A DNA stretch of 64,000 bases, from the NCBI GenBank assembly GCA_050179755.1, contig JBFXEV010000001.1, positions 1,001,994-1,065,993 of the forward strand, written 5' to 3'. Made by a program: the position numbers and the translations under genes. Below, piece by piece: positions 21,930 through 56,863 of this stretch. Within the stretch, counting starts at the first letter, position 1. The number at the start of each line of letters is the position of its first letter. Under the pieces are notes generated by a model, which saw nothing but the letters and a program-made list of their open reading frames with translations, was not told where the DNA came from and made no database searches. The stretch comes from Candidatus Babeliales bacterium. Lineage in GTDB: Bacteria; Babelota; Babeliae; Babelales; JBFXEV01.

Positions 21930-24900
21930 ATGCATAAATGTTTTTATAGCTTGTTTTTAGTATCGTCATTTGTTGTTGCGATGGAACCAAATTTAACTAT
22001 TCAATGTGATCCTGCGTTAATTCCTACCTATCATGAATGTGCACAGGAACTTCAAAATAATTCTTGGCACAAAGCTGTTGATACAGCATTGCTTTCAGCA
22101 TATGCAGAGCATGGTGATCTACACATGTTTGAGTCAAGGATTGGGCGTGAAAAAAAATTACGTGATAATCAATTACTTTCATGGGCCATGGGCAGTGAAT
22201 TTGATGTGGTAAGAACACTTTTAAGGCGTGGTATTGCGCAAACTATAGGTGATAGTAGTTGGTGCAGTTATATAGAATCCGCATTGTCTGACAATAATGA
22301 TCTTCTTGCAACTGAGTTATTACAAGCAAAAGCAGATTTTGATCCACAAGCAGGTAAAATGGATTGGGTAACGTTATTGCAATGGGCAGCATCAACTGGT
22401 GCAATCAACACGGCACGTACTCTACTTGAAGGCCCGTATGGTGCAAAAATGGTTGATGCTTCTACAAAGAGTGCTCCTTTTACACCATTGCAACTTGCAG
22501 CGCAATGGCAGCAGGTTTCTAATGGCGTATGTTATGCTGAACCATTATTTAGCGCACGCAAACGTGAAATGATTAATTTGTTGCTCACACATAGAGCAAA
22601 ATTTGATGTGATAATTACTACAAGATTTGGTGACCGTTGTGTAGTTGGTAATGAACATACGCAATCATTTGTTAATTGGTGTGTGTCACAAAAATATGAT
22701 GATTGTTTAGCGCGTTTAGTTGAACGTAAGCAATTATGTGGAGATAATGTTATTAAGAATGATTATTCTGGTGTAGAACAAACATTATCATCTTGGGCCG
22801 CAGGGCAGGGCAGTTTGCCGCTCGTAAAAGCATTAGTGCCGATGGTAGATGAAAAACCTAAGTATCAGGTAGATTTTACTGAATTGATTAAGCGAGCAGT
22901 AAATTGGGGCCGTAAGCCTGTTATCGATTATTTAGGCATGCATCCAGCCACTAAAAGAAGAAAATCTACCGCACAATTAATGATGCATTGCGCTGTAAGC
23001 CATGGTTGGTTGGGCACAGCGCGCGCACTTGCAACGCATTATGGTATTGAAAATCTTACTGGTGAAGATGATTGGTATCATACTAGTGAATATTTTCATG
23101 ACATAGCACCAAACGTATCTCCTGCAATGGTGCGGCAACTTCTTGCGTGGGATTGTAATCCGCGTGCAAAAAATGAACAAGGTAACGTGCCGCTTATGTC
23201 AGTTACTGCTGCAAATAACGTGCAATCAACAGCTGTTATGCTTGCAGCAGGTTGTTTGCTCGATGAAGGAAATATTTCAGCACTCGCTGCAACTTTTTCT
23301 TCAAACAAGACAACACCAGAACTGTTTGAACAACTACTTGCCTATACATCTGATCGTGCGCATGTGCGAGAGATTTGTGTTGCGCAGACTGGCATGACTC
23401 CTGTTGAATTTGCTGTTGGCAAAGGCTACCGCATGACCAAGCTAGTGCTAGAAGCTGGATTTGATCCGAATGAATATAAGCAAGAGCATCCTCTTGCATT
23501 TGCAGTTGGCCATAAGGATAGTGAACTAGTGGCATTGCTTTTGCGCCATGGCGCAGATGCCGATATAACATTTGAAGATGGCAGTACGTTGTTGCATAGA
23601 GCTGCACAACATGGCAGCGTTGTTATGTTGCAACATTTGTTTAATGCCGGCGTGCAACCGTCAGTAGATGAAAATGGGCACACGCCTTTGTTGAATGCTG
23701 CTTATTTCAATACTCCTGAAGTTGTTTCATTCTTGCTTAATCGCAATGGCCCAGAGGCAATTCGTCAAATAGCATATACATTAGAATCTCATAATGATGG
23801 CCCTGATATTTCGCAAACGCTATTTGAATATGTGATTCACCAAAGAAGAAATGATGTAGTGCCAGTATGCCAATTACTTTATGAGCTTGGCGCTGATTTA
23901 GAACGCGTTAATGAACTTGGTGAAACGCCGATATTTTGGGCAGTCAGAAATAGCAACGCTGCCGCACTTGAATGGGCAGTGGCACAAGGTGCTCGCCTTG
24001 ATGTAACAAATCAAGAAGGTGAAACGCCTCTTTCATTTTTGGCATCGCAAATAGAATGGGTTCAAGAAGAATTATTAATTGCTGTGCTTAAAGGGCTTTC
24101 TGCTTATGCCGGCGGCGTTGTGCCAGTGATGGATGCTATAGAGCTTAGTAAAAAATATCCATTAGATAACTATTGGGTTTCTGATGAGCACGTTAAAGTT
24201 TGGAAAGCATCACTGAAGTTTGATCCATTTGAACAAATTGGGCTTTATTGTGGCACTGGTTTGCATAAAGAGTATCTGCGTGAGCGTGAGGTTAAACCAA
24301 CACTTGCAGCTCGGTTAAAAGAGATTGAGCAAAAAAATTGCCGGCATGGTGCGTATTTGTTTGCACAAAAAATGAAGGAGATGTTTACTGGTAATGATCT
24401 TGAAGCGGTAAAGCAATTTGTGGCGACTAATGTTAATTTGTGTACATATGACGTGCAACATGGTGCTACGGTGCTCCATTGGGCTGCCCAAAATGGTCAT
24501 GCTGATTTGGTAAGAGATTTGCTTGAAAATCATGGCCTTAAAGAAGTAATCAATAAAGAAACTATTCATAAATGCGCTGCATTAAGTGAAGCGGCAACTG
24601 CTGAATGTGCGCAGATACTACTTGATAATGGTGCCGCAATTACGCCAAACGTGATCTCTCGATTAATTTTTCAAACAAATAACGAGGCATGTGGTGTAAT
24701 TCTTGCGCATCTTGATGGGGCAGCGTTTTCGCAGGAAGATGTTCAACGTCTTTATGAAAGTGCGGCTCATAATGGTAACGTGCTGATTACCCAAAAATTT
24801 TTGGAGCTTGGTGCTCAGCCTAAAATAGCAGATCTTGAGCATGCGGTGCGTGAGCAACGTGTTGGTGTGGCGACTTTGCTTGCAGCACGAGGCATTTCAA

Positions 24901-25799
24901 TTGCAGATGCTAATACGGCAGCACAACAAAACAAGTGGAACCCTTTATCTTCTCTTGCTTATCTTGCAGTGGAAAAGAAAAATTCTGCTTTACTTAAAGA
25001 AGTTATTGAAACAGCAGATGAGTCATTGTTAACAAGTGCAGTGTGGCGGGATTTTCATGAAGGTGTTGCTATCTTATTAGAAGCTGGTATTGTTCCCACC
25101 AATACACATCCAAGTGATCCCTTGATGGATGCAATACGAGCTAAATCTGTTGAGTGTTGTAAACTACTAGTGGAACATCAAACCGTGCGGTTTGTGCATG
25201 TAGAAAAAGCATTGCTACATGCACCAATTATGCGCATATTATTGCCAAAATTTGAACCATCACAAGAACAGTGTGCAGCGCTACTTGAAAAAGCAGTTGA
25301 TTCGTGTGCTGCAGATTCGGTGCGCATTTTGCTTGAGAAAACGCGTAATTTAAGTGGTGTTACTTCTAAGGGGCTTACGTATTTTCATATGATTGCACAA
25401 AAAGCACATCACTTTGGTGTTGATGAACGCAGCGCGCAAAATAAAGGTGCTCATTGGAGTGAACGAGTTAAAAATATTACCTGGTTGCAATCTTGGAAAA
25501 CGCGCGTTTTAGAAGGTAATGAATGCGCAGATACTCAATCAGAATCACGAGGAAAGGTTCAAGGCATTGTTGCAACTTTGCATGCGTTAATGACAACGCC
25601 TGTTTGCGCTAGCGCGCAAACGCACAAAAACGCACTTTTTTGGGCATTGCACGGGGGAGTTGGCAAACAGCAAATAAAGCCTTTTGATATGGCACAGAAA
25701 GCTGGTAATTCCACTACATTTTCTGATCTGTTTGATGTTGCTAAAGTTGAACAGTGGCATGCGGCAATTGATCGGGAGTATGAGAAGAAGGATGTATGA
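21930..25799 (+). CDS. Large secreted ankyrin-repeat protein (1289 aa)
   Basis: Signal peptide ending VVA-MEP; many ankyrin motifs (GSTLLHRAA, GHTPLLNAA, GETPIFWAV, GATVLHWAAQNGH). Confidence 0.9.
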   Translation: MHKCFYSLFLVSSFVVAMEPNLTIQCDPALIPTYHECAQELQNNSWHKAVDTALLSAYAEHGDLHMFESRIGREKKLRDNQLLSWAMGSEFDVVRTLLRRGIAQTIGDSSWCSYIESALSDNNDLLATELLQAKADFDPQAGKMDWVTLLQWAASTGAINTARTLLEGPYGAKMVDASTKSAPFTPLQLAAQWQQVSNGVCYAEPLFSARKREMINLLLTHRAKFDVIITTRFGDRCVVGNEHTQSFVNWCVSQKYDDCLARLVERKQLCGDNVIKNDYSGVEQTLSSWAAGQGSLPLVKALVPMVDEKPKYQVDFTELIKRAVNWGRKPVIDYLGMHPATKRRKSTAQLMMHCAVSHGWLGTARALATHYGIENLTGEDDWYHTSEYFHDIAPNVSPAMVRQLLAWDCNPRAKNEQGNVPLMSVTAANNVQSTAVMLAAGCLLDEGNISALAATFSSNKTTPELFEQLLAYTSDRAHVREICVAQTGMTPVEFAVGKGYRMTKLVLEAGFDPNEYKQEHPLAFAVGHKDSELVALLLRHGADADITFEDGSTLLHRAAQHGSVVMLQHLFNAGVQPSVDENGHTPLLNAAYFNTPEVVSFLLNRNGPEAIRQIAYTLESHNDGPDISQTLFEYVIHQRRNDVVPVCQLLYELGADLERVNELGETPIFWAVRNSNAAALEWAVAQGARLDVTNQEGETPLSFLASQIEWVQEELLIAVLKGLSAYAGGVVPVMDAIELSKKYPLDNYWVSDEHVKVWKASLKFDPFEQIGLYCGTGLHKEYLREREVKPTLAARLKEIEQKNCRHGAYLFAQKMKEMFTGNDLEAVKQFVATNVNLCTYDVQHGATVLHWAAQNGHADLVRDLLENHGLKEVINKETIHKCAALSEAATAECAQILLDNGAAITPNVISRLIFQTNNEACGVILAHLDGAAFSQEDVQRLYESAAHNGNVLITQKFLELGAQPKIADLEHAVREQRVGVATLLAARGISIADANTAAQQNKWNPLSSLAYLAVEKKNSALLKEVIETADESLLTSAVWRDFHEGVAILLEAGIVPTNTHPSDPLMDAIRAKSVECCKLLVEHQTVRFVHVEKALLHAPIMRILLPKFEPSQEQCAALLEKAVDSCAADSVRILLEKTRNLSGVTSKGLTYFHMIAQKAHHFGVDERSAQNKGAHWSERVKNITWLQSWKTRVLEGNECADTQSESRGKVQGIVATLHALMTTPVCASAQTHKNALFWALHGGVGKQQIKPFDMAQKAGNSTTFSDLFDVAKVEQWHAAIDREYEKKDV

Positions 25800-26744
25800 A
25801 ATTAATTTTGCTGTGTTTATTAATGAGTGCGCATGCTGTTGCAATGGATACGCAGAATTCATGTGAAGCACATGAAACTCCACGTGTACTTGAGGGTGCT
25901 CTCCTTTCAAAAGAAGCGCGCCAAGCAAAGCTTGCTGAATGGTGGGGCACTAAAAAAATAAACGTGAAACAGTATCCAATGGCCAGTGCAAGTGGCTCTG
26001 GAAGATGGGATATATGCTTGTTGTTGGCACAAGAATATGGAGATGCATTAATAGAAGACGATATTCAAAAAGTATTTTCGCATGCAACTGCAATTAGTAG
26101 TTGTGGACGTATTGATGATTGCATTCCAGTATGTAGCGCATTCGTGCGTCTTGGCGCAAAGCCCACTGCCGATCAATTGTTATTTGCAATAAAGTGCCTT
26201 AATAATCCAATGGCACAATTTTTGATACAGAATGGTGTGACCATTGCGCAAGCTGCTGAACACCGAAAAATTGTGTATCACGGCAAACCATCATCTCTTG
26301 CAGAATTGGTAGTGTGTCTATCACGGCCTCATCTTAATAGGACCAAAGGGCTTGCGATGCTCCAAACAGTTATTGAGACAGCAAATGCAGGAACTCTTTT
26401 TAGTGCTTTGCGTGCTCATTGGGTTGAAGCGGTGGCACTAGTGATCAAGCAGCTTGCTGTGCGCGGTGAACCGTTACCCGCACAGGCTTTGAGCATTGCA
26501 ATAGTGGAGGAATCAGTTGAGTGTTGTAAGTTATTACTGGCCGCATGGTCAAGTGGTTACTTGGGAGCATATTCAATTACCGCATGATCCTGCAGTTCTT
26601 GAATGTTTGTTGTCTGAGTATGATGCTACACCAGAGCAACTGGCACGGTTTGAGGATTTTATCAATAACCCGCATAATGGTGGTTATGATATGAAAGAAG
26701 TAATGCGTGCCTATATTAAGCGAAGGAATTCGGAGTTGGCTTGA
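25796..26744 (+). pseudogene. Secreted degenerate-ankyrin protein, frameshifted near 26540; paralog of the C-terminal part of 21930-25799
   Basis: SVECCKLL shared with the upstream protein; similarity (HQTVRFVHV vs HGQVVTWEHI) continues in the ORF 26517-26744 frame. Confidence 0.65.
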
Positions 26745-26753
26745 AATCTAAAG

Positions 26754-26918
26754 CTATTTTTTAAATAATTTTAGATATTCACCATATCCTTCTTTTTGTA
26801 AATCTTCTACCGGCACAAAACGCAGTGCTGCAGAATTCATGCAATAGCGTAAACTGGTAGGCATTGGGCCATCAGTAAAAATGTGCCCCAAATGTGAATT
26901 TGCTTGTTTACTATGAAC
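26754..26918 (-). pseudogene. msrB: Detached duplicate of the msrAB 3' end (MsrB C-terminus)
   Basis: Translates [54 protein letters not shown]; 48-bp exact match 26802-26849 = 29785-29832. Confidence 0.92.
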
Positions 26919-26939
26919 TACCAAGCTTGCGTCCAGTAG

Positions 26940-27293
26940 TTACTGCACAATTTCTAATATTAAAAGATTATTTAATTGGAATAAATAAAACCATATTTTA
27001 TTATAAAGTTGTTGTCGTTCGCTGTAAGAATTATCTTGCTTTTGTGTAGCTTCTGCAATGAGAGCCTGAACTCTTTCATAGTGGTTTTCATATTGAGTAT
27101 GCATTAGACTGGCAAGCTCTAAAACATATGTATTGTCTATGATGATATTTTGGCTCAAAAGCACAATTGCAATGGTTGAGCAAAATTCACTGTCAATAAA
27201 TTTATGTTCAAGTCCATATCTTAGCAATTCCAGAATATCAATCTTTTTTAATTCAATAATTTTTTGAATAATTTTTTTATTTTGTTCTAACAT
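26940..27293 (-). CDS. Putative immunity protein (resembles the N-terminal part of DUF2247), possibly truncated
   Basis: LLRYGLEHKFI, VLELASL, KIWFYL pattern recalled for DUF2247; lies in the toxin operon. Confidence 0.5.
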   Translation of the reverse strand: MLEQNKKIIQKIIELKKIDILELLRYGLEHKFIDSEFCSTIAIVLLSQNIIIDNTYVLELASLMHTQYENHYERVQALIAEATQKQDNSYSERQQLYNKIWFYLFQLNNLLILEIVQ

Positions 27294-27310
27294 AATTATC
27301 TCTTAAATAG

Positions 27311-27850
27311 TTACTTTGAATGTTCAATTAAGTATTTATATTCAGATGGGGTTATGCCCTTCAGAACAAAGGAGCAAATATTTAAATCAATATCCGTAAG
27401 AACACCAAAATTATTATTCATTATACATAAAACTGGCTTTGGCATAGTGGCTATTGAGATTTTCAATGCATCATTATAAACATCCACTTTACAAGCTTCT
27501 GTCATTGTATAATTAAAGCCATCATCAAGGTATGGCCTTCTTATTAATTGATTAATATCTTTAATTTTTAGTGCAATGGTGCTATTATTATAAGGAAGTT
27601 CTGCAAGTGAAATATTGCCTTTTATAAAATTATATTTTTTATTGCAAAGAAGAGTGATGCTAACTAATTCCCCAAATTCTTTTCCAATTTGAAAATACAT
27701 ATAATAATCTTGAGTACGATATTCAACTCGATTATGCGTATTTGAATATATGTCATATTCAAATGTTATATTCATGGGTATATATTCATCAATTAGTCTT
27801 TTTACATTAATGACTTTATTGGTAGCGAATTGAAAAAATAGGTCATTCAT
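27311..27850 (-). CDS. Putative immunity protein
   Basis: Starts 2 bp after the toxin stop; very AT-rich; no family recognised. Confidence 0.6.
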   Translation of the reverse strand: MNDLFFQFATNKVINVKRLIDEYIPMNITFEYDIYSNTHNRVEYRTQDYYMYFQIGKEFGELVSITLLCNKKYNFIKGNISLAELPYNNSTIALKIKDINQLIRRPYLDDGFNYTMTEACKVDVYNDALKISIATMPKPVLCIMNNNFGVLTDIDLNICSFVLKGITPSEYKYLIEHSK

Positions 27851-27852
27851 AA

Positions 27853-29610
27853 TTATTTCTTCTTAAAAGCATGGAAAAGGGCTGGATGTCCATCTTCAAC
27901 TCGCGGATAGCCGAATATTAATTCCCAAGAATTTATAATTATTAATTTCCCGTATTCTATACCCGAATCAGATTTTATTGCTTCCTGAATTGCTTCATAA
28001 AAATCATTAAGTAGTAATTCATGTGACAGTTTATATTCTTTTGCAGGAATATCCCAAGGGGATCTTTGCGGATCCATATATGGCCTGTCATTTTTACGTG
28101 GACTAGTATTTTCCATAATATGTTCGGATGCATTTGGGCTTACCCAGATTAATTGCCCATCAACATTAATTACAAATGATTTCGGTATTAGAGAATGTGG
28201 ATTATAAAGTTCTTGAGTAGGAGTAATTTTTAACCAAATTTTTTCAGGATTTTGATTGCTCAACGCTTGGATTATAGCTATAGTTTCTTCGAGAGTGATT
28301 TCAGGATTCGTTTTTATAGGAAAGCCAATATTAGTTTTATCTGTTTGATGATTTGAGTCTTCTGAATAATTATAGCTACGTTCATCAATTCTTTTGCTAT
28401 GGTTCCTAGAATCATTAACTCGCTTTATATGTGCATTATTAATTTGATTTTTGTCAGATACTTCTAATTGACTTAAATCAAATTTTGTGGGATTTTTGCT
28501 CCAGTTACATGAAGTTATTGGCTCAGCTATAGGTTGTAAGCCCGTGCCACAAGTATAACTTTCTCCGTCATTTATTTCTTGGGTGTAAGTAGGGTTATTT
28601 GCATTAATATCTTCAAATGATGGCATTCTTAAAGTTGTACCGCAAAAGCGCTCTTCGCTTTTTCTAGATTCTTGAAGACATGATGGGATATTGTCGTCAA
28701 GGCCCTGCGGTGCAGGCAATAATCCAGTTCCGCAACCAATAACATTAACGTCGTCAAATTTTGGAATAGGAAATGATCTAGTGTCATGTACGCTAGGTGG
28801 CCTTGGTAATTTCTTATGATCATAATGAGTTAGTTGGCTTTTTGTTGATTGCGGGTCATGAGCAAATACAGCGTTAGAACTATTATTTTCATTACCCAAA
28901 TACCCACGAACACTAGAATCTTTATTTGTTTCAAAGACACTACCTTTGCAATGCCCTGGAGAATTCAAAAGAGGATTAATTGAATCAAAGAGGTTAGAAT
29001 TAGAAATATCTAAATTCATATCTGTTGTGGCATGCGTATTTTTTGCTACAAAGTCATAAACCAAATATGTTGCCGCACCAACAGCAACTGCCTTTAAAAT
29101 CGGCATGACTCCAAGAGTTATTGGTATTACAATCATAAAATTATGAGCAACTATACCGCTGGGTGTGACACAAAATGTATGTGGCGCTTCAAGAGTAAGA
29201 TCATAGATAACAGCGTTTATATGCACTTGATTCACATTTTTGACCACAATCTGTTGCTTATAACAACTTTGTAATATTGTCTCAGGTATTAGATCAGGCG
29301 CGCAGCGCCACGCTTTTTCAATAGGTAAAAAAAATGATTGTTGGGTATCGGTAAGTATATGATTAGCATTTGTTTGAATATGAATAAGAGTAGAAACTTC
29401 GTGACAAGTGATCTCAATTATTGTTCGTAATGCAAACTCATTTGTAGACTCATCAAAGCAATAAACCTCATCATTAATTTGAAGTGCTTCTATTGGAATA
29501 AATCCATGTAACGTTTTGACTAATGTGCCTTCGACAAAACCTGCTTGCAAACATGCAAATTTAAGAAATACTATATAAGCAAATACGAAAGAAATTTTGT
29601 GCGATGACAT
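27853..29610 (-). CDS. Secreted Hint-domain polymorphic toxin 1 (C-terminal tip resembles CdiA-CT RNase/tRNase-type domains)
   Basis: Signal peptide, GFVEGTLVKT...IYDLTLEAPHTFCV...VAHN Hint domain, TSCNWS, tip IPKSF...IWVSPNASEH...WELIF...PALFHAF. Confidence 0.8.
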   Translation of the reverse strand: MSSHKISFVFAYIVFLKFACLQAGFVEGTLVKTLHGFIPIEALQINDEVYCFDESTNEFALRTIIEITCHEVSTLIHIQTNANHILTDTQQSFFLPIEKAWRCAPDLIPETILQSCYKQQIVVKNVNQVHINAVIYDLTLEAPHTFCVTPSGIVAHNFMIVIPITLGVMPILKAVAVGAATYLVYDFVAKNTHATTDMNLDISNSNLFDSINPLLNSPGHCKGSVFETNKDSSVRGYLGNENNSSNAVFAHDPQSTKSQLTHYDHKKLPRPPSVHDTRSFPIPKFDDVNVIGCGTGLLPAPQGLDDNIPSCLQESRKSEERFCGTTLRMPSFEDINANNPTYTQEINDGESYTCGTGLQPIAEPITSCNWSKNPTKFDLSQLEVSDKNQINNAHIKRVNDSRNHSKRIDERSYNYSEDSNHQTDKTNIGFPIKTNPEITLEETIAIIQALSNQNPEKIWLKITPTQELYNPHSLIPKSFVINVDGQLIWVSPNASEHIMENTSPRKNDRPYMDPQRSPWDIPAKEYKLSHELLLNDFYEAIQEAIKSDSGIEYGKLIIINSWELIFGYPRVEDGHPALFHAFKKK

Positions 29611-29733
29611 AATTGAACCTTTTTTAAGTTACAATTTCTTTGCCTCAGAACTGTTCATTTTTTTGATCAGAACAATTGTATCGCATTTCTCAAAACTAGC
29701 AAGTTCATATCTTTAGTATTTCACCTGGCAAAT

Positions 29734-30801
29734 TTATTTTTGTTCAAATAACTGAATATAGTCTCCATAACCTTCTTTTTGTAGATCTTCTACCGGCACA
29801 AAACGCAGTGCTGCAGAATTCATGCAATAGCGAAGACCTGTTGGCAAGGGGCCATCAGTAAAAACGTGCCCCAAATGTGAGTCAGCTTGTTTACTACGAA
29901 CTTCTGTGCGTGTCATAAACCAGCCGCGGTCTTCTCGCTCAATCACCGCATCGGGCGCAATTGGTTTGGTAAAACTTGGCCAGCCAGTTTTTGCGTCATA
30001 CTTATCTGTTGAACTAAAAAGCGGCTCGCCAGAAACAATATCCACATAAATGCCTGGCGCATTGTTATCCCAGTATATATTGTTGTGCGCAGGCTCGGTG
30101 CCATTTTCTTGGGTTACACTATATTGCAATGGCGTGAGAATTTTTTTGAGTTCTTCTTGAGACGGTTTTTTAAATGTACCCATTTTCTTGGCCCATGCTT
30201 TTTCTATGAATGTATCTCGCCCTGAAAGATAGCGAAACGTTTTATAACGTATTGGATTTTTTTTGTAATAATCTTGGTGATAGTCTTCTGCTGCATAAAA
30301 CTGGGTTGCAGGTAAAATTTCAGTGGCAATTGGTTTATCAAAGCGGCCTGAACTGTTGAGTGTTATTTTTGAATTTTCAGCTTCTCTTTTTTGTTCATCA
30401 GTATGATAAAAAATTGCAGAGCGGTATTGAGGGCCGCGGTCATTAAATTGGCCATCAGCATCGGTGGGGTTAATGTTATGCCAAAACGTATCAAGTAATT
30501 TGCTGTATGAGACCACTTTTGGATCATAGATTACGTGCACTACTTCCACATGCCCTTTTTGAGCGTAATCTTGATAGGTTGGGTTTGCTCCTGCACCACC
30601 CATGTACCCAGATTGCACACTGTGCACGCCTGCAAGTTTTTCAAAAGGCGGCTCCATGCACCAAAAACATCCGCCTGCAAATGTTGCTTGTTCTGTTGCC
30701 ATAGTAGCCCCCTTGGAAGAATCACGTTTAGTACGCGAAGCATAATGATAGAGAAAAAGAAACATAATGAGGCCAAGAAGTATAAGAAATTTTTTTGTCA
30801 T
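29734..30801 (-). CDS. msrAB: Bifunctional peptide-methionine sulfoxide reductase MsrA/MsrB with N-terminal anchor
   Basis: [38 protein letters not shown] before MTKKF. Confidence 0.95.
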
Positions 30802-30869: not shown

Positions 30870-31784
30870 TTAGTGAGCGTACGCGTAGCGTGTCTCCAAA
30901 TAACTGCATACGTTATCAAGAGTAGCCTGTAAGAGCGAGCTTTGCAGTTCAGTACTGTTTTCACGATCTCCGCCAAAAAGAGAAAGCAACGAGCTTTTTG
31001 GTTCCGGTTTGACCCATTCAATTTCACCTACTACGATTGCCATTTCCTTTATCTTACGCACAGCATCTGATTGTGAGCCAATTTCATCAATTAAGCCTAA
31101 TTTAAAAGCTTGGTTGCCGGTAAATATTTTGCCGTTTGCCCATTCGCTTGCTTTTTCTTTAGAAAGCTTATGCCGTTGCTTTGCCACATGTTCTATAAAG
31201 TTTTGGTAACTATCGTCTGAAAGGTCTTGCAGCATGGCAAGCTGCTCTGGTGTGGTTTCTATAAATGGATCAGTGCTGTTTTTATAGTCCCCGGAGCTTA
31301 GGTCTTTGTACTCAATATTATGATATTTAAGCAGCTTATCAAATCTAAATTGATAGGGAATTGTTGATCCAATAGAGCCCACAAAGGTAGAGGGTGCTGC
31401 AATGATATAATCGGTACTTGAGGCAATGTAATAAGCACCTGAGGTGCAAATATTTTCACAAAGGGTTATGATGGGCTTTGGGTATTCTTTCTTTAAAAGT
31501 TCAATTTCATGGGCGATAATTTCCCCCGTTGCAGCGGCGCTGCCTGGGCATTCTACACGCAAAAGAATTGCTTTAATTTCGTTATCTTTAAAATATTTGC
31601 GCAGATAGTGCACATAATCAGTGGAATCATAGAGCACGCCTTTGAGCGGCAGGTAGGCAATCTTGGTTTGCGGCTCAAGCATGTTGGTATAGTTTTTCAT
31701 GAAACTTTTAATGATAGGCGGGGCGATTTGCAGGAGTACCAGAAGAAAAAAGAGCGCTTTTAAATAATCAGTAAATTTTGCCAT
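30870..31784 (-). CDS. sppA: Signal peptide peptidase SppA (S49)
   Basis: ILLRVECPG, SGAYYIAS, VGSIG, SGDYK, GKIFTGNQAFKLGLIDEIG. Confidence 0.9.
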   Translation of the reverse strand: MAKFTDYLKALFFLLVLLQIAPPIIKSFMKNYTNMLEPQTKIAYLPLKGVLYDSTDYVHYLRKYFKDNEIKAILLRVECPGSAAATGEIIAHEIELLKKEYPKPIITLCENICTSGAYYIASSTDYIIAAPSTFVGSIGSTIPYQFRFDKLLKYHNIEYKDLSSGDYKNSTDPFIETTPEQLAMLQDLSDDSYQNFIEHVAKQRHKLSKEKASEWANGKIFTGNQAFKLGLIDEIGSQSDAVRKIKEMAIVVGEIEWVKPEPKSSLLSLFGGDRENSTELQSSLLQATLDNVCSYLETRYAYAH

Positions 31785-32787: not shown

Positions 32788-33396
32788 ATGATATTAAGAA
32801 GCTTAGATGGCAAAAAGCGCTGTTTTGGTGGCCAACCGGGTAAAGAATTTTATGCAGAATATCATGATAATGAATGGGGCATTCCTGTTCATAATGATCA
32901 GCACTTATTTGAAATGCTCATTTTGGAGGGTGCCCAAGCGGGATTAAGTTGGGAAACTATTCTTAAAAGACGTACAGGTTATCGCAAAGCTTTCCATGAT
33001 TTTGATCCAGTTAAAGTGGCGTCAATGAGCGATGCTGAACTGGATGTATTATGTTCCAACCAGGAGATTATTCGTAATAAACGCAAAATATATACCGCAC
33101 GCCAGAACGCTCAAGCTTTTTTACGCATCAAGCAAGAATTTGGATCATTTGATCAGTATCTTTGGGATTTTGTTGGTAGCAAGCCTATGGTAAATCATTG
33201 GCAGCGGTTTGAAGATGTTCCGATTACCACGGTTGAAAGTGATGCATTATCAAAAGATCTCAAAAAGCGCGGGATGGCATTTGTTGGTTCTACAATTATG
33301 TATGCATACATACAGGCGGTAGGTCTAGTCAATGACCACTTGATCGAGTGCTGGAGGTATGGCCATGCTATCGCAGATAAGCAAAATAATTATTAG
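32788..33396 (+). CDS. tag: DNA-3-methyladenine glycosylase I
   Basis: YHDNEWGIP, LFEMLILEGAQAGLSW, IIRN, FVGSTIMYA, NDHL..C. Confidence 0.95.
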   Translation: MILRSLDGKKRCFGGQPGKEFYAEYHDNEWGIPVHNDQHLFEMLILEGAQAGLSWETILKRRTGYRKAFHDFDPVKVASMSDAELDVLCSNQEIIRNKRKIYTARQNAQAFLRIKQEFGSFDQYLWDFVGSKPMVNHWQRFEDVPITTVESDALSKDLKKRGMAFVGSTIMYAYIQAVGLVNDHLIECWRYGHAIADKQNNY

Positions 33397-34412
33397 TTTT
33401 TTGAGGAACTAGCTGATTTAGGTATCCGAGGACTTTCTTTAATTGCTTTATTGATATTATAGATAATATCTCTTTGTAATTGAGCGTCAGGTGCATCAGG
33501 AAAATATTTTTTTGCTAATGCTAATTTATCGCGAACAATTTCTGGAATTAATTGAGCAGCAACAAGCCTTCCCATATCTCTACCAAGAATATTTTGTTTT
33601 TTAGTTAAGGCAATAATTGCCGGTATTACATGCTGAATCTCACTTGGAGAAACTCTCGTGAGTAATATTCTTAGCACTCCGCTAATATTCTGAATAATAA
33701 GTTGTCTTAATTCTTCCTCTTGACGAGGCAATAGCTCTTTTGCAGCATTTAATTTTTGTGTAACTAATTCGGGAACGAGCTGAGCTGCAACAACACTGCC
33801 AACAGTTTGCCCCAGGGCTGGATTAATTAGATGTTGTATTGAGGCAAGGTTTGGCAGTATAGATACTAATTCTAGGGGGGAAACTGATGTGCTTAAAGCA
33901 CGAATAGCTTGAACATTATTCGATTGCCGGGCACCTTGCATTGGAGTCAATTCAAATTTATCAGGTGTGTTAATATTGGCACCATACGCAATAAGAATTG
34001 GAATTGCGTTTGCACCAAGAAACCCAGAAGAAACTGCAGCATGCAATGGTGTTTGGCCATTGTTATCGAGTGCCTCAATATTTGCACCAGCTTGAATGAG
34101 CGTGCTCACGCCCACAGTATTTCCAGCTCTTGCAGCGTGATGAAGAGGTGTTTGGCCTTCTAGATCTTTGTAATGTAAGTCAGCGCCATAGTTAAGAAGC
34201 TGATTAATTTGTTGTATATGGGGGTCTATCTGCTCAATGTTTCTATAATAAGGCACAGATCCGGCTAGACTCAATAATATTTCATTCCTGATATCTTGGG
34301 ATCTCCCTTTACTATCTTGTGTTAACTGTACAGGTTCTTGCATAGCATGCACTAAGCAAGTCTGTGGCAGCATTAAGCCAATTAAGATAAATAACATACG
34401 TTTTCTATTCAT
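33393..34412 (-). CDS. Secreted ankyrin-repeat protein with a duplicated C-terminal helical unit
   Basis: Signal peptide ending VHA-MQE; GQTPLHHAA, GQTPLHAAV. Confidence 0.88.
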   Translation of the reverse strand: MNRKRMLFILIGLMLPQTCLVHAMQEPVQLTQDSKGRSQDIRNEILLSLAGSVPYYRNIEQIDPHIQQINQLLNYGADLHYKDLEGQTPLHHAARAGNTVGVSTLIQAGANIEALDNNGQTPLHAAVSSGFLGANAIPILIAYGANINTPDKFELTPMQGARQSNNVQAIRALSTSVSPLELVSILPNLASIQHLINPALGQTVGSVVAAQLVPELVTQKLNAAKELLPRQEEELRQLIIQNISGVLRILLTRVSPSEIQHVIPAIIALTKKQNILGRDMGRLVAAQLIPEIVRDKLALAKKYFPDAPDAQLQRDIIYNINKAIKESPRIPKSASSSKN

Positions 34413-50934: not shown

Positions 50935-51170
50935 AGAAGTTGATCGTTTTGTTTTGTAATTATAAAGTGATATCTAGAATAACATTTTTTTCATATTCGC
51001 GATAATTTGGAAAAGCTTTAAAATAAAGGGCTTTTAAGCATTATACGCATCTACAAGTTTAATGCATGCTTGCAACTCTTGATAAATGGCCGTAGTCTAT
51101 CAATGCGTAAGTTGTATTGAATCTCGTTAAATGGCCTAGAATAATTGCAAACTTAAAAAGGGTTACAACA

Positions 51171-52946
51171 ATGATATACCGCAAAGCGTCTCTATTTTTA
51201 TTTTTTGCAACATTTTTTATTTGTTCACGTATAAAAGCTGGCTTTATTGAAGGAACGCTCGTTAAAACCTCTCAAGGCTTTGTGCCAATACAAGAATTGA
51301 GAATTGATGACGAAGTCTATGCATATGATACACGCACAGAAGAATTTGCAATACGCAGCATTGTGGCTAGTAATAGTCATGCAATATCTTCTTTGATCCA
51401 TCTGCAAGCCAATGGAAAACACCTTTTTGCTGATGCTGAACAGTTGTTTTACTTAGTCCTTGAAAAGAAATGGTGTTGTGCAAAAGATCTTCAGCCCGGA
51501 ATGTTGATGCAATCTTATCATGGGCAAAAAATTTTGGTGGAAAAGGTCAATGAACTCAATGTAAATAGCACTGTACATGAGATTACGCTTAATGAACCTC
51601 ACACTTTTTGCGTGACTGGCGATGGCATAGTTGTTCATAATTTTGCTTTTACCATCCCAATTTTGATTTTTGGTGCAGAAGGTATATCTCTTGCTAGTGG
51701 TATTGGTTCCGCATTAGTAAGCGGCGTCTGTGCAATAATTTGTTATAAAATTATTGCAGACACCGCTGGAGCAACCGTTGACCCTAATTTAGGTGTTTCT
51801 CAAGCTGATTTTTTAGGATCACAACAACAAAATATTAATCAAACAATAAATTATAACGCTCAAGCGAAGCATTATTCTCTAGCGCCTGATCACTCTCAAG
51901 CTACTGCAAAAAATACTGTCTTTTCTAGTCCAAAAACATCTGCTGACTTGGCAAGTAGCAGTTTTGAAAGATATCCTGGTGTGCATGATACACGGTCTTT
52001 CCCTGTCCCAAAATTGCCTATAGTCAATGCATGTGAAATTCCTGAAAAAAATAAGAATGGGCAGGAAATATCCACGTGCCCACCACCCAAAGAAGAAGAA
52101 CTATTACCAACGCTTGGTTGCGGCCAACCTCAAATGCCTGAGCCAATTATTTCTGGAGAATGTTTGCCCGATGTGCCAGAAGCGGACAGACTACAGTGTC
52201 CAGGAATTATTGGAGCATGGAAGCCGGAAGATGCGCAGACCTCATGCAATTGGAGCCGATCTCCACAGATACCCGGTTTGCTTGATATAAGTCCTGAAAA
52301 CGATTTACAAGAAGATTCAGGTGATAGTGAAGATGAAGCGCAAGTTGCCGACGATGAAATAACTGGCCAAAATGATGATGTTGCTCCCGCCAAGCCCAAA
52401 GAGAAAAATCAAAGGCAATCCAAAAAGAACTCACGACCATGGGATCTACCTAATCATGACCCAGCAATCGATATTGAGAAAATTGATTTTTCTGAAGTGC
52501 CTTATTTAACTCAAGAAGAAATCGAATTAATTAAAGAATGTATTGAACGATTTTTAGAGGTAGAAGGCTTTCTAGCAAATGATGGTGCTTTGTGGAGAAT
52601 ACTTAAATTTGAGGATCAAAAAAATGGAGCATTGTTTGAATTAGAATACATCAGTGAGTTGACTGATCAAGGCAGTACCATTATCAAAATGGGCTATGAA
52701 GTAAAAATACAAGGTGAAGTAATAGAAATTGATATTGAAACTGATACTGAATTAATAGAATGTAAATCTGGTACCTGGGAACTAAAAGAAGAAAATTACA
52801 TTAAGAAACTAAAGAAAAAGCTGCAGTTGGGAAAAGAACATAGCAAGAATCTGCAAAAGGAATTTGTAGTTGTTTCGAAAAAGTCAATTCCTACAATGTG
52901 GAAAAATTGGTTCATCGAAAACAATATAAATTTTAGAGAAAAATAA
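51171..52946 (+). CDS. Secreted Hint-domain polymorphic toxin 2 with a PD-(D/E)XK nuclease-like tip
   Basis: Signal peptide ending IKA, GFIEGTLVKT...VVHN Hint domain, TSCNWS, tip GALFELE...EIDIETDTELIECKSG. Confidence 0.82.
   Translation: MIYRKASLFLFFATFFICSRIKAGFIEGTLVKTSQGFVPIQELRIDDEVYAYDTRTEEFAIRSIVASNSHAISSLIHLQANGKHLFADAEQLFYLVLEKKWCCAKDLQPGMLMQSYHGQKILVEKVNELNVNSTVHEITLNEPHTFCVTGDGIVVHNFAFTIPILIFGAEGISLASGIGSALVSGVCAIICYKIIADTAGATVDPNLGVSQADFLGSQQQNINQTINYNAQAKHYSLAPDHSQATAKNTVFSSPKTSADLASSSFERYPGVHDTRSFPVPKLPIVNACEIPEKNKNGQEISTCPPPKEEELLPTLGCGQPQMPEPIISGECLPDVPEADRLQCPGIIGAWKPEDAQTSCNWSRSPQIPGLLDISPENDLQEDSGDSEDEAQVADDEITGQNDDVAPAKPKEKNQRQSKKNSRPWDLPNHDPAIDIEKIDFSEVPYLTQEEIELIKECIERFLEVEGFLANDGALWRILKFEDQKNGALFELEYISELTDQGSTIIKMGYEVKIQGEVIEIDIETDTELIECKSGTWELKEENYIKKLKKKLQLGKEHSKNLQKEFVVVSKKSIPTMWKNWFIENNINFREK
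52407..52562 (+). repeat. 156-bp exact direct repeat shared by toxin 2 and the orphan tip (54020-54175)
   Basis: Identical by eye from AATCAAAGGCAATCC to TTTTTAGAGGTA. Confidence 0.92.
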
Positions 52947-52948
52947 TC

Positions 52949-53812: not shown

Positions 53813-53848
53813 TTATGTTTTCCGCATTAGCTTGGTTTTCTTGATTAG

Positions 53849-54565
53849 AGCAGGCATCCACATATATCCGGACTGCTTGATATAAGTCCTGAGAAAGATT
53901 ATCAAGAAGATGCTGACAATCAAGAAGATCCTGGTAATTGTGAAGATGATGCACCAGTTGTCGAAGGTGAAATAACTGGCCAAAATGATGATGTCGCTCC
54001 AACGAAGCCTAAAGAGAAGAATCAAAGGCAATCCAAAAAGAACTCACGACCATGGGATCTACCTAATCATGACCCAGCAATCGATATTGAGAAAATTGAT
54101 TTTTCTGAAGTGCCTTATTTAACTCAAGAAGAAATCGAATTAATTAAAGAATGTATTGAACGATTTTTAGAGGTACAAGGATTTATTGCAAAAGATGGTG
54201 CTCTCTGGAGAATACTTAAATTTGAAGCTCAAAAAGATGGGGCATATTTTGAATTAGAATACATCATTGAGCTGAGTGATCAAGGCCGTAAAATTATTAA
54301 AATGGGTGAGGAAGTCAAAGTACATGATGGATTAGTTGAAATTGACATTGAAACTGACATTGAATTAATAGAATGTAAATCCGGTATTTGGGAAATTAAG
54401 AATGCGCAAATAATTAAGAATTTACAAGATAAACTATTGTCTGCAAAAGAATATGGCAAACAGTTACAAAAATCATTTGTTGTAGTTACTAAAAAACAAA
54501 TTCCACCGATGTGGCAAAACTGGCTTGATCAAAATAATATTAACCATAGAGATTGGGAACCATAA
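53849..54565 (+). pseudogene. Orphan toxin C-terminal cassette (no signal peptide or Hint domain)
   Basis: Open frame from 53849 SRHPHISGLLDISPE... aligns to toxin 2 from NWSR onward; EIDIETDIELIECKSG intact. Confidence 0.85.
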
Positions 54566-54639
54566 GGAATAGTTATTCTTTGAAAAATTAGTTAATTAAA
54601 AATACTTAAAATGATTTTTTGGTTATTGAATAATTTCTT

Positions 54640-55016
54640 ACAAATGCTAATGCTCTCTTGAGTTACTCGAATCCGTAGAGCAAAAATTGAGCATTATTTA
54701 AATTAGAATATATCATGGAGCTGAAATGAACAAGACTAGACCAATTATTAAAATGGGACATAAGTTTGCAGTGCAGGAGGAACTAATAGAAATTGATATT
54801 GAAACTGATACTGAATTAATAATATGTAAATCTAGCGTTTGGGAGCAAACGAGAACAGATAAAATTAATAATTTAAAAAATAAGTTATTCCTTGCAGGAA
54901 AATGTGGCAATGGCATGGGAAAGCCATTCGTCATAGTTTCTAAAAAAATCATTCCGCTAGAGTGGAAAAATTGGTTTAATAAAAATAATATTAAATATAG
55001 AGAATGGCAACGATGA
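54640..55016 (+). pseudogene. Second, degraded orphan toxin tip
   Basis: IIKMG...EIDIETDTELIICKSS...W.NWF; upstream ALFKLEYIMEL in another frame; ATGA overlap with the next gene. Confidence 0.78.
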
Positions 55017-55873: not shown

Positions 55874-55951
55874 TTGCATTTTATGTATTTGCATTATTTT
55901 CTTGAAGAGTTGACTTGATTTAAATAATATTAAATATACGAAATGGCAATC

Positions 55952-56818: not shown

Positions 56819-56863
56819 TAATTACCGTATTGTGCATTCGTATTGTTTTTTTGTAACGACTTT

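What the first reader, a model, noticed from the sequence alone, without database searches (positions are those of the whole stretch)
27853..29610. Hint domain remodelled for C-terminal cleavage only (Cys1 to Gly, His-Asn-Phe)
Seen in both toxins: predicted signal cleavage (LQA|GFVEGT, IKA|GFIEGT) puts the Hint domain at the mature N-terminus with Gly where Hint domains have Cys/Ser1. The terminal HN is intact, and the +1 residue is Phe followed by a 25-35 aa hydrophobic stretch. Established: splicing needs Cys/Ser1 and a +1 Cys/Ser/Thr, whereas Asn cyclisation alone gives C-terminal cleavage. Inference: signal peptidase replaces the N-terminal reaction, and the Hint acts as a self-removing cap that unmasks a membrane-inserting N-terminus.
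Basis: partly seen in the sequence, partly recalled or inferred. Interest (0 to 1): 0.8.

Follow-up and report, generated by a model that had tools for sequence, protein, structure and literature searches.

The report
Cysteine-less Hint cap on Babeliales toxins
These secreted bacterial toxins start with a self-cutting intein-like domain that has lost the parts needed to cut at its front end and kept those for its back end, and the same design recurs in many relatives, pointing to an undescribed way of maturing toxins.

Summary
Toxin A (27853-29610, minus) and toxin B (51171-52946, plus) share one layout, as does a third copy elsewhere in the genome. The layout is a Sec-type leader, a Hint domain starting with Gly where Hint domains have Cys/Ser, an intact His-Asn end, then Phe and a 33-39 aa Gly-rich hydrophobic stretch, a linker and a variable toxin domain.

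The Hint fold is confident (AF2 pLDDT 87; Foldseek hits to bacterial intein-like domains and mini-inteins).

Among the best 150 relatives, 120 Hint domains sit at the N-terminus.
- 108 have Gly1.
- Block B His is Gln in 86, and block B Thr is kept in only 12.
- The Asn-cyclisation residues are kept: block F His 113/120, His-Asn 117/117.
- The 28 internal, classical pretoxin Hints keep Cys1 (24), Thr (23) and His (23), and lack the hydrophobic tail.

The family matches 74 of 151 sampled genomes of the phylum (Babeliales/Dependentiae). Each gene is followed by a leaderless immunity-like gene.

Best reading: a Hint domain that cuts only at its C-terminal end. No cleavage has been shown. Whether the freed hydrophobic N-terminus inserts into a target membrane or is a stop-transfer anchor stays open. 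I rate it a new variant of a known kind, and my searches found no published description.

The parts
27853..29610 (-). Toxin A gene (585 aa): leader, Hint, hydrophobic stretch, linker, variable C-terminal domain
   Evidence: ORF; PT-HINT 29.0 bits against a 27.7 cut-off; conserved upstream context at the ATG
29542..29610 (-). Toxin A residues 1-23: Sec-type leader ending L-Q-A
   Evidence: Read directly from the sequence; AF2 helix at residues 3-19; family-wide [LIVA]-x-[AGS] motif before Gly. No SignalP run.
29140..29541 (-). Toxin A residues 24-157: Hint domain. Gly24 codon 29539-29541; block B D88..Q91; block F His144; His156-Asn157 codons 29140-29145
   Evidence: Alignment to 2lwy; AF2 pLDDT above 94 across 21-150; Foldseek hits to BIL and intein structures
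29041..29139 (-). Toxin A residues 158-190: Phe+1 and the Gly/Ala-rich hydrophobic stretch, followed by K/N/T
   Evidence: Read directly from the sequence; AF2 helix 170-191; family pattern
28339..29040 (-). Toxin A residues 191-424: low-complexity linker shared with toxin B (VHDTRSFP[IV]PK, repeated C-G-T-G ... S-C pairs)
   Evidence: A and B align up to A418/B403 at 31% identity, E 5e-65
27856..28338 (-). Toxin A residues 425-585: variable C-terminal domain of unknown family (presumed toxin)
   Evidence: Does not align with toxin B; only one other homologue found, P0156 at 64% identity; no Pfam family; AF2 model unusable, pLDDT 41
27311..27850 (-). Candidate immunity gene of toxin A (179 aa, no leader), starting 3 nt after the toxin's stop
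   Evidence: 66% identical to the ORF in the same position after the homologous toxin in a Babeliales MAG (L004); no Pfam or NCBIfam family
26940..27293 (-). Second small ORF (117 aa) downstream of toxin A; function unknown
   Evidence: a 135-aa ORF lies in the same position in L004. Their similarity was not scored.
51171..52946 (+). Toxin B gene (591 aa from ATG 51171): leader 51171-51239, Hint 51240-51641 (Gly24 51240-51242; His-Asn 51636-51641), hydrophobic stretch 51642-51758, linker, variable C-terminal domain from about 52497
   Evidence: PT-HINT 41.3 bits
52949..53812 (+). Candidate immunity gene of toxin B (287 aa, no leader)
   Evidence: paralogues at 55004-55873 (65% identical) and at 55943-56818
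54110..54565 (+). Orphan toxin C-terminal module (151 aa), 70% identical to the toxin B C-terminal domain
54726..55016 (+). Second, shorter orphan C-terminal module (96 aa)
   Evidence: The translation shows the same IEIDIETDTELI.CKS and KNWF..NNI motifs; not scored
55004..56818 (+). Two further immunity paralogues (55004-55873 and 55943-56818)

Best explanation
Toxin A and toxin B belong to a large subfamily of polymorphic toxins of Babeliales (Dependentiae). Their layout is a Sec leader, a Hint domain, a conserved Phe-led Gly-rich hydrophobic segment, a linker and a variable toxin domain. Each gene is followed by a gene for a cytosolic immunity protein.

The Hint domain derives from the pretoxin-HINT / type A bacterial intein-like lineage. 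It has lost the residues that act on the N-terminal junction: Cys1 is Gly, block B Thr is variable, and block B His is mostly Gln. It has kept the residues that drive cyclisation of the terminal Asn: block F His, the penultimate His and Asn.

Inferred mechanism:
1. Sec export and signal peptidase leave the Hint domain at, or one residue from, the mature N-terminus.
2. The domain then makes a single cut, between Asn157 and Phe158, by succinimide formation.
3. This releases itself and leaves a fragment that begins with Phe and the hydrophobic segment and carries the toxin.

Shown here: the fold, the residue pattern, its conservation, and the toxin-immunity gene order.
Inferred: export, the signal-peptidase site, the cleavage itself, and what the hydrophobic N-terminus does next (probably membrane insertion during delivery).
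For: Fold.
- AF2 gives pLDDT 87.1.
- Foldseek hits: 6y75 E 1.6e-12; 2lwy TM by target 0.92; mini-inteins follow.
- PT-HINT scores over Pfam's cut-off in both toxins.

Residue pattern in 120 N-terminal Hint rows.
- Position 1: G108 A4 S3 C3 D1 I1.
- Block B His position: Q86 H33.
- Block B Thr position: T in only 12.
- Block F His 113/120; His-Asn 117/117.
- +1 is Phe in 71 of 117.
- A TM-like stretch follows in 86 of 113.

Contrast in 28 internal Hint rows from the same search: C24, Thr 23, His 23, polar +1, TM-like stretch in 1 of 26.

Independent sample. Of 30 ORFs from related genomes, 29 of 29 scorable have Gly1, 27 have Gln at the block B His position and 29 have His-Asn.

Gly is selected for its own sake. 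It is invariant in a 68-sequence alignment at about 25-50% identity. It stays even where the signal-peptidase motif ends one residue earlier (49 of 103).

Chemistry. C-terminal cleavage by Asn cyclisation can proceed off-pathway without the N-terminal steps, with block F His and the penultimate His as helpers (PMC4031507, passages).

Polymorphic-toxin context.
- A and B share residues 1 to about 420 and differ after that.
- Orphan modules and immunity paralogues are present.
- A leaderless small ORF directly follows the toxin in the related loci.
- Named toxin domains occur in 32 of 92 relatives: Ntox37 18, Ntox21 11, Cytotoxic 2, Ntox33 1.

Envelope. The genome has two signal peptidase I genes, two Omp85 genes and two secretins.
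Against: - No cleavage product has been observed; everything rests on sequence and a predicted fold.
- In some inteins C-terminal cleavage is strictly coupled to the earlier steps (PMC4031507). Loss of Cys1 and block B His could therefore leave a slow or dead domain.
- The block F Asp position is only moderately kept (D 58 of 120).
- 33 of 120 still have block B His, so the N-terminal site is not uniformly dismantled.
- Signal-peptide cleavage was judged by rule of thumb only.
- K/R residues after the hydrophobic stretch fit a stop-transfer anchor, which would leave the toxin in the producer's cytoplasm.
- A Cys-parity test for an exported location gave nothing either way.
Confidence: 0.6

Rival explanations
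1. Type I membrane anchor with a shed ectodomain. The hydrophobic stretch is a stop-transfer helix. After leader cleavage the Hint domain sits in the periplasm, and the linker and toxin stay in the producer's cytoplasm bound to the immunity protein. Hint cleavage only sheds the ectodomain, as a timer or a regulatory step. The toxin leaves the cell by another route such as vesicles or lysis. This rival shares the C-terminal cleavage with the best explanation and differs in topology and purpose.
For: - K/R median is 3 in the 15 aa after the stretch, against 0 in the 15 before HN, as the positive-inside rule expects for N-out/C-in.
- The best 19-aa window passes the Kyte-Doolittle 1.6 threshold in 86 of 113.
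- AF2 draws a helix at 170-191.
- Immunity proteins lack leaders.
- Outer-membrane vesicles are reported for a cultured Dependentiae species (PMC6561590, passages).
Against: - The segment is Gly-rich and has a conserved W-x-F-G-x-G / Glu motif rather than a generic helix.
- With the recalled Hessa scale, only 2 of 104 best windows have a negative transfer energy (median +2.75), against 13 of 43 control segments from membrane proteins of the window. The difference is not significant (p 0.16).
- The linkers of this genome's copies carry repeated Cys pairs, which would be unusual in the cytoplasm (read from the sequence).
- A toxin that never leaves the cytoplasm does not explain the orphan modules and immunity arrays.
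Confidence: 0.25
2. Catalytically silent Hint. The domain no longer cuts anything and serves as a folded N-terminal module, for example for receptor binding, secretion recognition or solubility. His-Asn is then kept for structural reasons.
For: - Two of the classical catalytic positions are lost.
- In some inteins Asn cyclisation depends on the prior steps (PMC4031507).
- The block F Asp position is variable.
Against: - Invariance of His-Asn (117/117) and near-invariance of block F His (113/120) at 25-35% overall identity point to retained chemistry.
- The one relative with Tyr-Asn and no block F His is a short 213-aa ORF that looks degenerate.
- The residue after Asn is also constrained (Phe 71 of 117).
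Confidence: 0.1
3. Residual N-terminal chemistry. The domain would splice, ligate or cyclise using another nucleophile, such as the Cys in the H-x-F-C motif, or the free alpha-amino group attacking the C-terminal junction.
For: - Cys147 is common (59 of 120).
- The N- and C-termini of a Hint fold lie together.
Against: - There is no N-extein to transfer: at most 0-1 residue remains after leader removal, and only 6 codons of open frame lie upstream.
- The +1 residue is Phe, not Cys/Ser/Thr.
- The class 3 signature is absent: the block F Asp position is Asp/Glu, not Cys, and block B position 12 is Phe, not Trp.
- Cys147 is replaced by F, L or Y in 55 of 120.
Confidence: 0.03

Closest known systems
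Pretoxin HINT domain (Pfam PF07591) of polymorphic toxins (Zhang et al. 2012, PMC3482391)
   Same: Same Pfam family by score. Same Hint fold. His-Asn end. No +1 nucleophile. Sits in toxins with variable C-terminal domains and adjacent immunity genes. Predicted to release the toxin by autoproteolysis.
   Different: - The classical domain lies just before the toxin domain and inside the protein (passages). It keeps Cys1, block B Thr and His (24, 23 and 23 of 28 internal rows) and has no hydrophobic tail (1 of 26).
- Here it is the first domain after the leader, starts with Gly, mostly has Gln for block B His, and is followed by a conserved hydrophobic segment and a long linker.
- The 2012 paper names ZU5 and PrsW, not HINT, as the N-terminal processing peptidases.
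Type A bacterial intein-like (BIL) domains (C. thermocellum BIL, PDB 2lwy; Tetrahymena BIL2, PDB 6y75)
   Same: Best sequence and structure matches. C-terminal His-Asn. Non-nucleophilic +1 residue. Found in variable secreted proteins. Cleavage products dominate over splicing (PMC4031507 and PMC7765530, passages).
   Different: Type A BILs use a Cys1 thioester, so they can cut at both ends and splice. This family has no Cys1 and no N-extein.
Engineered C-terminal-cleaving mini-inteins (position 1 mutated to Ala or Gly, used as self-cleaving purification tags)
   Same: Same logic: remove the first nucleophile, keep His-Asn, and obtain Asn cyclisation alone. That reaction is favoured at low pH (PMC4031507).
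   Different: Those are laboratory mutants. The specific examples are recalled, not taken from a call: a search for 'C1G' with 'intein' returned one paper, which I did not open. Here the state is natural, conserved, and paired with a signal peptide.
CdiA-CT processing after VENN and the cytoplasm-entry domain (Bartelli et al. 2022, PMC9424206, abstract)
   Same: A precise proteolytic cut creates a new N-terminus that activates a domain for crossing the target inner membrane and carries a nuclease toxin. This is the closest functional parallel to the 'unmasking' idea.
   Different: No sequence or fold relation. Cleavage there is not by a Hint domain, and delivery is by a type V system. Membrane activity of the segment here is untested.
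Hedgehog Hog/Hint domain
   Same: A Hint fold used for a single, one-sided cut in a secreted protein.
   Different: Hedgehog cuts at its N-terminal junction with Cys1 and has no terminal Asn. This family is the mirror image.

Membership tests
HINT superfamily (fold) | Horseshoe-like all-beta Hint fold with N- and C-termini brought together | tested here: met
   AF2 pLDDT 87.1 and pTM 0.75. Foldseek: 64 PDB matches at E <= 0.001, led by BIL and mini-intein chains.
Pfam PT-HINT (PF07591) | Profile score over the curated cut-off (27.7 bits) | tested here: met
   Toxin A 29.0 bits and toxin B 41.3 bits, over residues 30-157
Pfam PT-HINT (PF07591) as described for polymorphic toxins | Placed immediately N-terminal to the toxin domain | tested here: not met
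   The domain occupies residues 24-157 of 585. About 270 residues (hydrophobic stretch plus linker) separate it from the variable domain.
Class 1 intein | Cys/Ser at position 1 | tested here: not met
   Gly24 aligns to position 1; Gly in 108 of 120 relatives
Class 1 intein | Cys/Ser/Thr at +1 | tested here: not met
   Phe158 in both toxins; Phe in 71 of 117 relatives and Ser or Cys in 4 of 117
Class 1 intein | Block B Thr and His | tested here: not met
   Asp88 and Gln91 in toxin A. In the family, Thr in 12 of 120 and His in 33 of 120.
Class 1 intein / type A BIL | Penultimate His and terminal Asn, plus block F His | tested here: met
   His156-Asn157 and His144. In the family 117/117, 117/117 and 113/120.
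Class 3 intein | Cys at the block F Asp position, Trp at block B position 12, and a +1 nucleophile | tested here: not met
   Asp137 (Glu in toxin B), Phe93 and Phe158. The definition is from PMC4031507.
Type A BIL domain | N-terminal Cys forming a thioester | tested here: not met
   Gly at position 1
Type A BIL domain | His-Asn end with a non-nucleophilic +1 residue, in variable secreted proteins | tested here: met
Polymorphic toxin system | Shared N-terminal part with an exchangeable C-terminal toxin domain | tested here: met
   A and B align over residues 1 to about 418 and not beyond. The third copy ends in Ntox37.
Polymorphic toxin system | Immunity gene directly downstream; orphan toxin tips and extra immunity genes | tested here: met
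   ORFs at 27311-27850 and 52949-53812. Orphan module 70% identical. Immunity paralogue 65% identical. Same gene order in the related loci. Protective function not tested.
Autoprocessing Hint domain (any kind) | Observed self-cleavage | not testable with these tools
   Needs protein expression and mass spectrometry

The most novel reading that the evidence does not exclude
A natural, single-cut Hint domain works as a self-removing periplasmic cap. Signal peptidase supplies its free front end, and Asn cyclisation then exposes a Phe-led, Gly-zipper-like peptide. That peptide acts as the membrane-entry device carrying nuclease toxins into rival cells. This would be a delivery mode of polymorphic toxins that needs no dedicated secretion machine, found so far in Dependentiae.
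Probability: 0.3. Interest if true: 0.8.

Novelty: new variant of a known kind. Interest (0 to 1): 0.65.

Why it matters
For intein and Hint biology, this would be a natural lineage in which the two halves of the splicing active site have been uncoupled by evolution. It has a clean residue signature (Gly1, Gln for block B His, His-Asn kept). The many diverged members could show which residues suffice for Asn cyclisation alone. They could also offer ready-made self-cleaving tags that work outside the cytoplasm.

For bacterial conflict systems, it adds an architecture that the 2012 survey of polymorphic toxins did not list: a Hint domain as the first domain, followed by a conserved hydrophobic segment.

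It also shows that Dependentiae, obligate parasites of protists with genomes of 1-1.5 Mb, invest in toxin-immunity arrays. That implies competition between strains inside hosts.

Tried and rejected
- Prepilin-type processing (Gly|Phe). Considered because of the G-F junction and the Phe-led hydrophobic product. Rejected from the sequence alone: the hydrophobic run precedes the G-F rather than following it, there is no Glu at +5, and the topology would be the reverse of a pilin.
- Lipoprotein signal. Rejected from the sequence: no lipobox before the Cys in either leader.
- Cys-parity test for an oxidising location. Uninformative. The Hint domain gave 42 even and 56 odd, the C-terminal part 37 even and 40 odd, so even the presumed periplasmic control shows no bias. 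The genome has VKOR; DsbB and Thioredoxin_4 were not found at 96% completeness.
- Transfer free energy of the hydrophobic stretch. Inconclusive.
- Fold of toxin A's C-terminal domain. AF2 with two sequences gave pLDDT 41, unusable, so no fold search was made. Pfam at E up to 10 and PDB sequence searches of the C-terminal domains gave nothing credible.
- My guess that toxin B's tip is a PD-(D/E)xK nuclease rests only on a D...E-C-K motif.
- Single origin of the Gly1 group. On a tree built without the trait columns, the N-terminal/internal label needs 7 changes, against about 25 when shuffled. A tree holding the 26 Cys1 rows together is not rejected (p-AU 0.228, two long-branch rows left out). 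One origin is therefore possible, not shown.
- The first attempt to scan genomes with the 68-row alignment failed because it was too diverse. A closer 8-row alignment was used instead.
- Earlier notes of this scan held nothing for this genome or this sequence.
- No binding prediction was run for toxin and immunity proteins.
Full report
WHAT IS THERE

The ORF at 27853-29610 on the minus strand encodes a 585-aa protein, toxin A. A second gene at 51171-52946 on the plus strand encodes a 591-aa protein, toxin B. The ORF lister starts toxin B at a TTG at 51117, but both genes share the upstream context AACTTAAAAA(A/G)GG before an ATG. I therefore take ATG 29610 and ATG 51171 as the starts.

In toxin A the open frame runs only 6 codons further upstream (591 against 585 aa). 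Nothing can precede the leader.

The two proteins align from residue 1 to about residue 418 of A (403 of B) at 31% identity, E 5e-65. They do not align after that. A third copy lies outside the window (L003, 424 aa, ending in an Ntox37 domain). A fourth profile match in the genome is only the Ntox37 part of that third copy.

Both window proteins read as follows:
- a leader ending in Ala
- Gly-Phe-[Val/Ile]-Glu-Gly-Thr
- about 130 residues ending in His-Asn
- Phe and a hydrophobic stretch: 33 aa in A (158-190) and about 39 aa in B

Pfam's PT-HINT model passes its own cut-off in both (29.0 and 41.3 bits against 27.7). The Intein_splicing and Hint_2 models match below their cut-offs.

The best solved relative by sequence is the C. 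thermocellum bacterial intein-like domain 2lwy (E 1.8e-6). In that alignment Gly24 falls on the first residue of the domain. That residue is Ala in the deposited chain, which as far as I recall is a Cys-to-Ala construct. The chain's T-F-D-H-P-F block B aligns with D-T-Q-Q-S-F.

An AlphaFold2 model of residues 1-200, built on a 68-sequence alignment, has mean pLDDT 87.1 and pTM 0.75, with pLDDT above 94 across residues 21-150. It shows a leader helix (3-19), an all-beta domain (24-157), a poorly defined segment (158-169) and a helix (170-191). Foldseek against the PDB returns 64 matches at E <= 0.001. The leading ones are Tetrahymena BIL2 (6y75, E 1.6e-12), 2lwy (TM by target 0.92, rmsd 1.4) and then mini-inteins.

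A LARGE FAMILY, NOT A LOCAL ODDITY

A full HMMER scan of 1.84 billion representative proteins with residues 1-200 found 2775 proteins at E <= 0.001 and 290 at E <= 1e-10.

I re-aligned the best 150 plus the query (151 proteins, 161 domain rows). Position 1 is aligned in 148 rows and unaligned in 13, which I dropped. I split the 148 by where the Hint domain starts.

| Feature | N-terminal class (start at residue <= 60; n = 120) | Internal class (n = 28) |
|---|---|---|
| Position 1 | G108, A4, S3, C3, D1, I1 | C24, S3, G1 |
| Block B Thr position | Thr in 12 | Thr in 23 |
| Block B His position | Gln 86, His 33 | His 23 |
| Block F His | 113 of 120 | 25 of 28 |
| Penultimate His, terminal Asn | 117 of 117 aligned, each | 27 of 27 aligned, each |
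| Residue after Asn | Phe in 71 of 117, mostly hydrophobic otherwise | mostly polar or charged (Ser 7, Lys 4, Thr 3 of 27) |
| 19-aa window over Kyte-Doolittle 1.6 follows | 86 of 113 | 1 of 26 |

The loss of the N-terminal-junction residues, the N-terminal position and the hydrophobic tail therefore travel together. The C-terminal-junction residues stay fixed. In the 68-row alignment the invariant columns are Gly24, Trp101, His156 and Asn157.

An independent sample gives the same picture. Of 30 toxin ORFs taken from loci in related genomes, 29 of 29 with position 1 present have Gly (one is cut by a contig end). The block B His position is Gln in 27, His in 2 and Asn in 1. His-Asn is present in 29 of 30. 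The exception is a short 213-aa ORF that also lacks the block F His.

WHERE THE FAMILY LIVES

The closest named genome record is a MAG of Candidatus Babeliales (OY970310.1; two loci). One relative is listed by NCBI as a hypothetical protein of a Candidatus Dependentiae bacterium.

A profile search of 151 genomes sampled from the window's phylum found matches in 74 of 151 genomes and 53 of 96 genera, often several per genome. All the genome rows printed were labelled as the same order; 57 non-matching genomes were not listed. The profile also holds some toxin-domain columns. By my hand count, about 10-12 of the 150 listed matches start beyond profile position 30, so the tally slightly overstates Hint matches.

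I could not test phyla outside this one.

GENOME CONTEXT

The window's genome is a 1.5-Mb single contig (96% complete) with many ankyrin-repeat genes. It has two Omp85 genes, two secretins, two signal peptidase I genes and a VKOR homologue. DsbB and Thioredoxin_4 were not found. A cultured member of the phylum has inner and outer membranes, relies on Sec export and appears to shed outer-membrane vesicles (PMC6561590, passages).

In the related loci the toxin gene is followed on the same strand by a small ORF without a hydrophobic N-terminus. These fall into recurrent families of about 100 aa (21 ORFs) and about 200 aa (9 ORFs). No conserved accessory or secretion gene appears beside them.

In the window:
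- The ORF after toxin A (27311-27850) is 66% identical to the ORF in the same place in the Babeliales MAG.
- Toxin B is followed by an immunity-like gene, two orphan toxin tips (the first 70% identical to toxin B's tip) and two more immunity paralogues (65% identity).
- Both loci are AT-richer than the rest of the window (GC 0.30-0.36 against about 0.39-0.42).

Named toxin domains in 92 relatives, at E <= 0.001: Ntox37 in 18, Ntox21 in 11, the colicin-E3-type Cytotoxic domain in 2, Ntox33 in 1, and none in 60. Three of these hits are under Pfam's own cut-off.

The tips of toxins A and B match no family. The AF2 model of A's tip is unusable (pLDDT 41).

THE LEADER AND THE FIRST RESIDUE

The presequence before Gly has a median length of 23 aa. 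In 86 of 103 Gly1 relatives it has a K/R-bearing start and an apolar run of at least 8 residues.
- In 42 of 103, a [L/I/V/A]-x-[A/G/S] motif ends directly before Gly, as in this genome's three copies.
- In 49 of 103, the same motif ([L/I]-x-[G/A]) ends one residue earlier and is followed by Glu, Gln or Asp and then Gly-Phe.
- 12 have another residue at -1.

Signal peptidase would therefore leave the Hint domain with zero or one residue in front of it. Gly is kept in both cases, so it is not merely a by-product of the cleavage site. I infer that it is needed by the domain itself, perhaps to make room for the bulky +1 Phe. I could not check this because model coordinates are not returned.

Relatives with Glu/Gln/Asp at -1 keep the block B His more often (23 of 53 against 8 of 50; Fisher p 0.003). 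These sequences are kin, so the p-value overstates the association.

MECHANISM

Established knowledge (Mills, Johnson and Perler 2014, PMC4031507, passages read):
- Step 1 of splicing uses Cys/Ser1, helped by block B Thr and His.
- Step 3 is cyclisation of the terminal Asn, helped by the block F His and the penultimate His.
- Asn cyclisation can occur off-pathway as C-terminal cleavage and is favoured at low pH.
- In some inteins, however, it is strictly coupled to the earlier steps.

This family fits none of those exceptions. It has no +1 nucleophile, no Cys at the block F Asp position, no Trp at block B position 12, and no N-extein at all.

The best-supported reading is a domain that makes one cut only, between Asn157 and Phe158. 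I put this at about 0.6, because no product has been seen and coupling could make such a domain slow or inert.

WHAT THE FREED END DOES IS OPEN

The post-Asn segment is not a generic helix. Its consensus is Phe, a Pro within the next few residues, then G-[I/L]-S-W-x-F-G-x-G, often a Glu, and then a Gly/Ala-rich run of about 18-20 aa. The median total length is 35 aa. A [G/A/S]xxx[G/A/S]xxx[G/A/S] pattern occurs in 66 of 104.

It is followed by K/R: median 3 in the next 15 aa, against 0 in the 15 aa before His-Asn. Two readings fit.

The marginally hydrophobic, Gly-rich segment passes the Sec channel, the Hint domain keeps it masked, and cleavage exposes it for insertion into a membrane during delivery.
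- Weak support: the linkers of this genome's copies carry repeated C-G-T-G...S-C pairs that hint at disulfides.

(b) The anchor model. The segment stops transfer, the toxin stays in the producer's cytoplasm with its immunity protein, and the Hint domain is a shed ectodomain. The K/R flank and the leaderless immunity genes fit this.

My attempts to separate the two were inconclusive: Cys parity and the free-energy comparison with membrane proteins of the window (p 0.16).

COMPARISON WITH WHAT IS KNOWN, AND NOVELTY

By profile score and fold this is a member of PT-HINT and of the HINT superfamily, and its nearest structures are type A BILs. It fails defining features of each narrower class:
- no Cys1 (inteins, BILs)
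- not adjacent to the toxin domain (PT-HINT as described)

[quoted passage not shown] Only the first 300,000 characters of that paper are held, and its additional files were not seen. A 2026 paper still calls PT-HINT release 'predicted' (PMC13483458, passages).

Full-text searches found no description of this form:
- 'Dependentiae' with 'polymorphic toxin': 0 papers.
- 'pretoxin HINT': 2 papers, neither on this topic by title and abstract.
- 'Dependentiae' with 'hint': the 8 papers listed (of 10 found) are community, microbiome or method studies by title and abstract; none was opened.
- Babeliales genus names with 'intein' or 'Hint domain': 72 papers held at least two terms, and none of the 15 listed held a term of both kinds.

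The library lacks most subscription journals, so this is absence in what was searched.

On a tree built without the trait columns, the N-terminal/internal label needs 7 changes, against about 25 when shuffled. A tree that holds the 26 Cys1 rows together is not rejected (p-AU 0.228). One origin of the Gly1 form is possible but not shown.

I rate the finding a new variant of a known kind.

VERDICT

- Observation: confirmed.
- Interpretation: partly supported. The C-terminal-cleavage-only reading is well grounded in conserved residues. The signal-peptidase point needs the one-residue refinement. The membrane-unmasking role is a reasonable but untested inference with a serious topological rival.
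- Interest: 0.65.

Noticed in passing
window 51171-56818: The toxin B locus is a classic polymorphic-toxin array. It holds the toxin, an immunity-like gene, two orphan toxin tips (54110-54565, which is 70% identical to the toxin's tip, and 54726-55016) and two further immunity paralogues (65% identity).
   Followed up: partly
window 26001-30000 and 52001-58000: Both toxin loci are AT-richer (GC 0.30-0.36) than the rest of the window (about 0.39-0.42). This may reflect fast turnover or acquisition.
   Followed up: no
window 29611-29635 (-) and 51146-51170 (+): The two toxin genes share a near-identical stretch just upstream of the ATG (AACTTAAAAA(A/G)GG...). It may be a shared ribosome-binding or regulatory context, or a trace of duplication.
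   Followed up: no
window 28339-29040 (-) and 51759-52496 (+): The linkers share a VHDTRSFP[I/V]PK motif and repeated C-G-T-G ... [S/T]-C pairs in otherwise low-complexity sequence. The motifs recur in the closest relatives (P0002, P0003, P0008). They could be disulfide loops or metal sites.
   Followed up: no
relatives P0009-P0151: Relatives with Glu/Gln/Asp just before Gly1 keep the block B His more often (23 of 53) than those with Ala/Gly/Ser there (8 of 50). This may hint that the free amino group at Gly1 takes over a role of that His. The sequences are kin, so the test overstates.
   Followed up: partly
window 30870-31784 (-) and 42186-42911 (+): A signal peptide peptidase SppA-like ORF (identified by eye from its translation, not scored) lies two genes upstream of toxin A. 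One of the genome's two signal peptidase I genes lies in the window (Pfam Peptidase_S26 hit). The proximity is probably coincidental.
   Followed up: no
window 21930-26587 and 33393-34412: Several large leader-bearing proteins appear to be ankyrin-repeat proteins (judged from the translations, not scored), as reported for secreted effectors of Dependentiae.
   Followed up: no
L014 2975-3616 (-): A 213-aa family member has Tyr-Asn instead of His-Asn and Gly instead of the block F His. It sits next to an intact copy and is probably a decaying paralogue.
   Followed up: no
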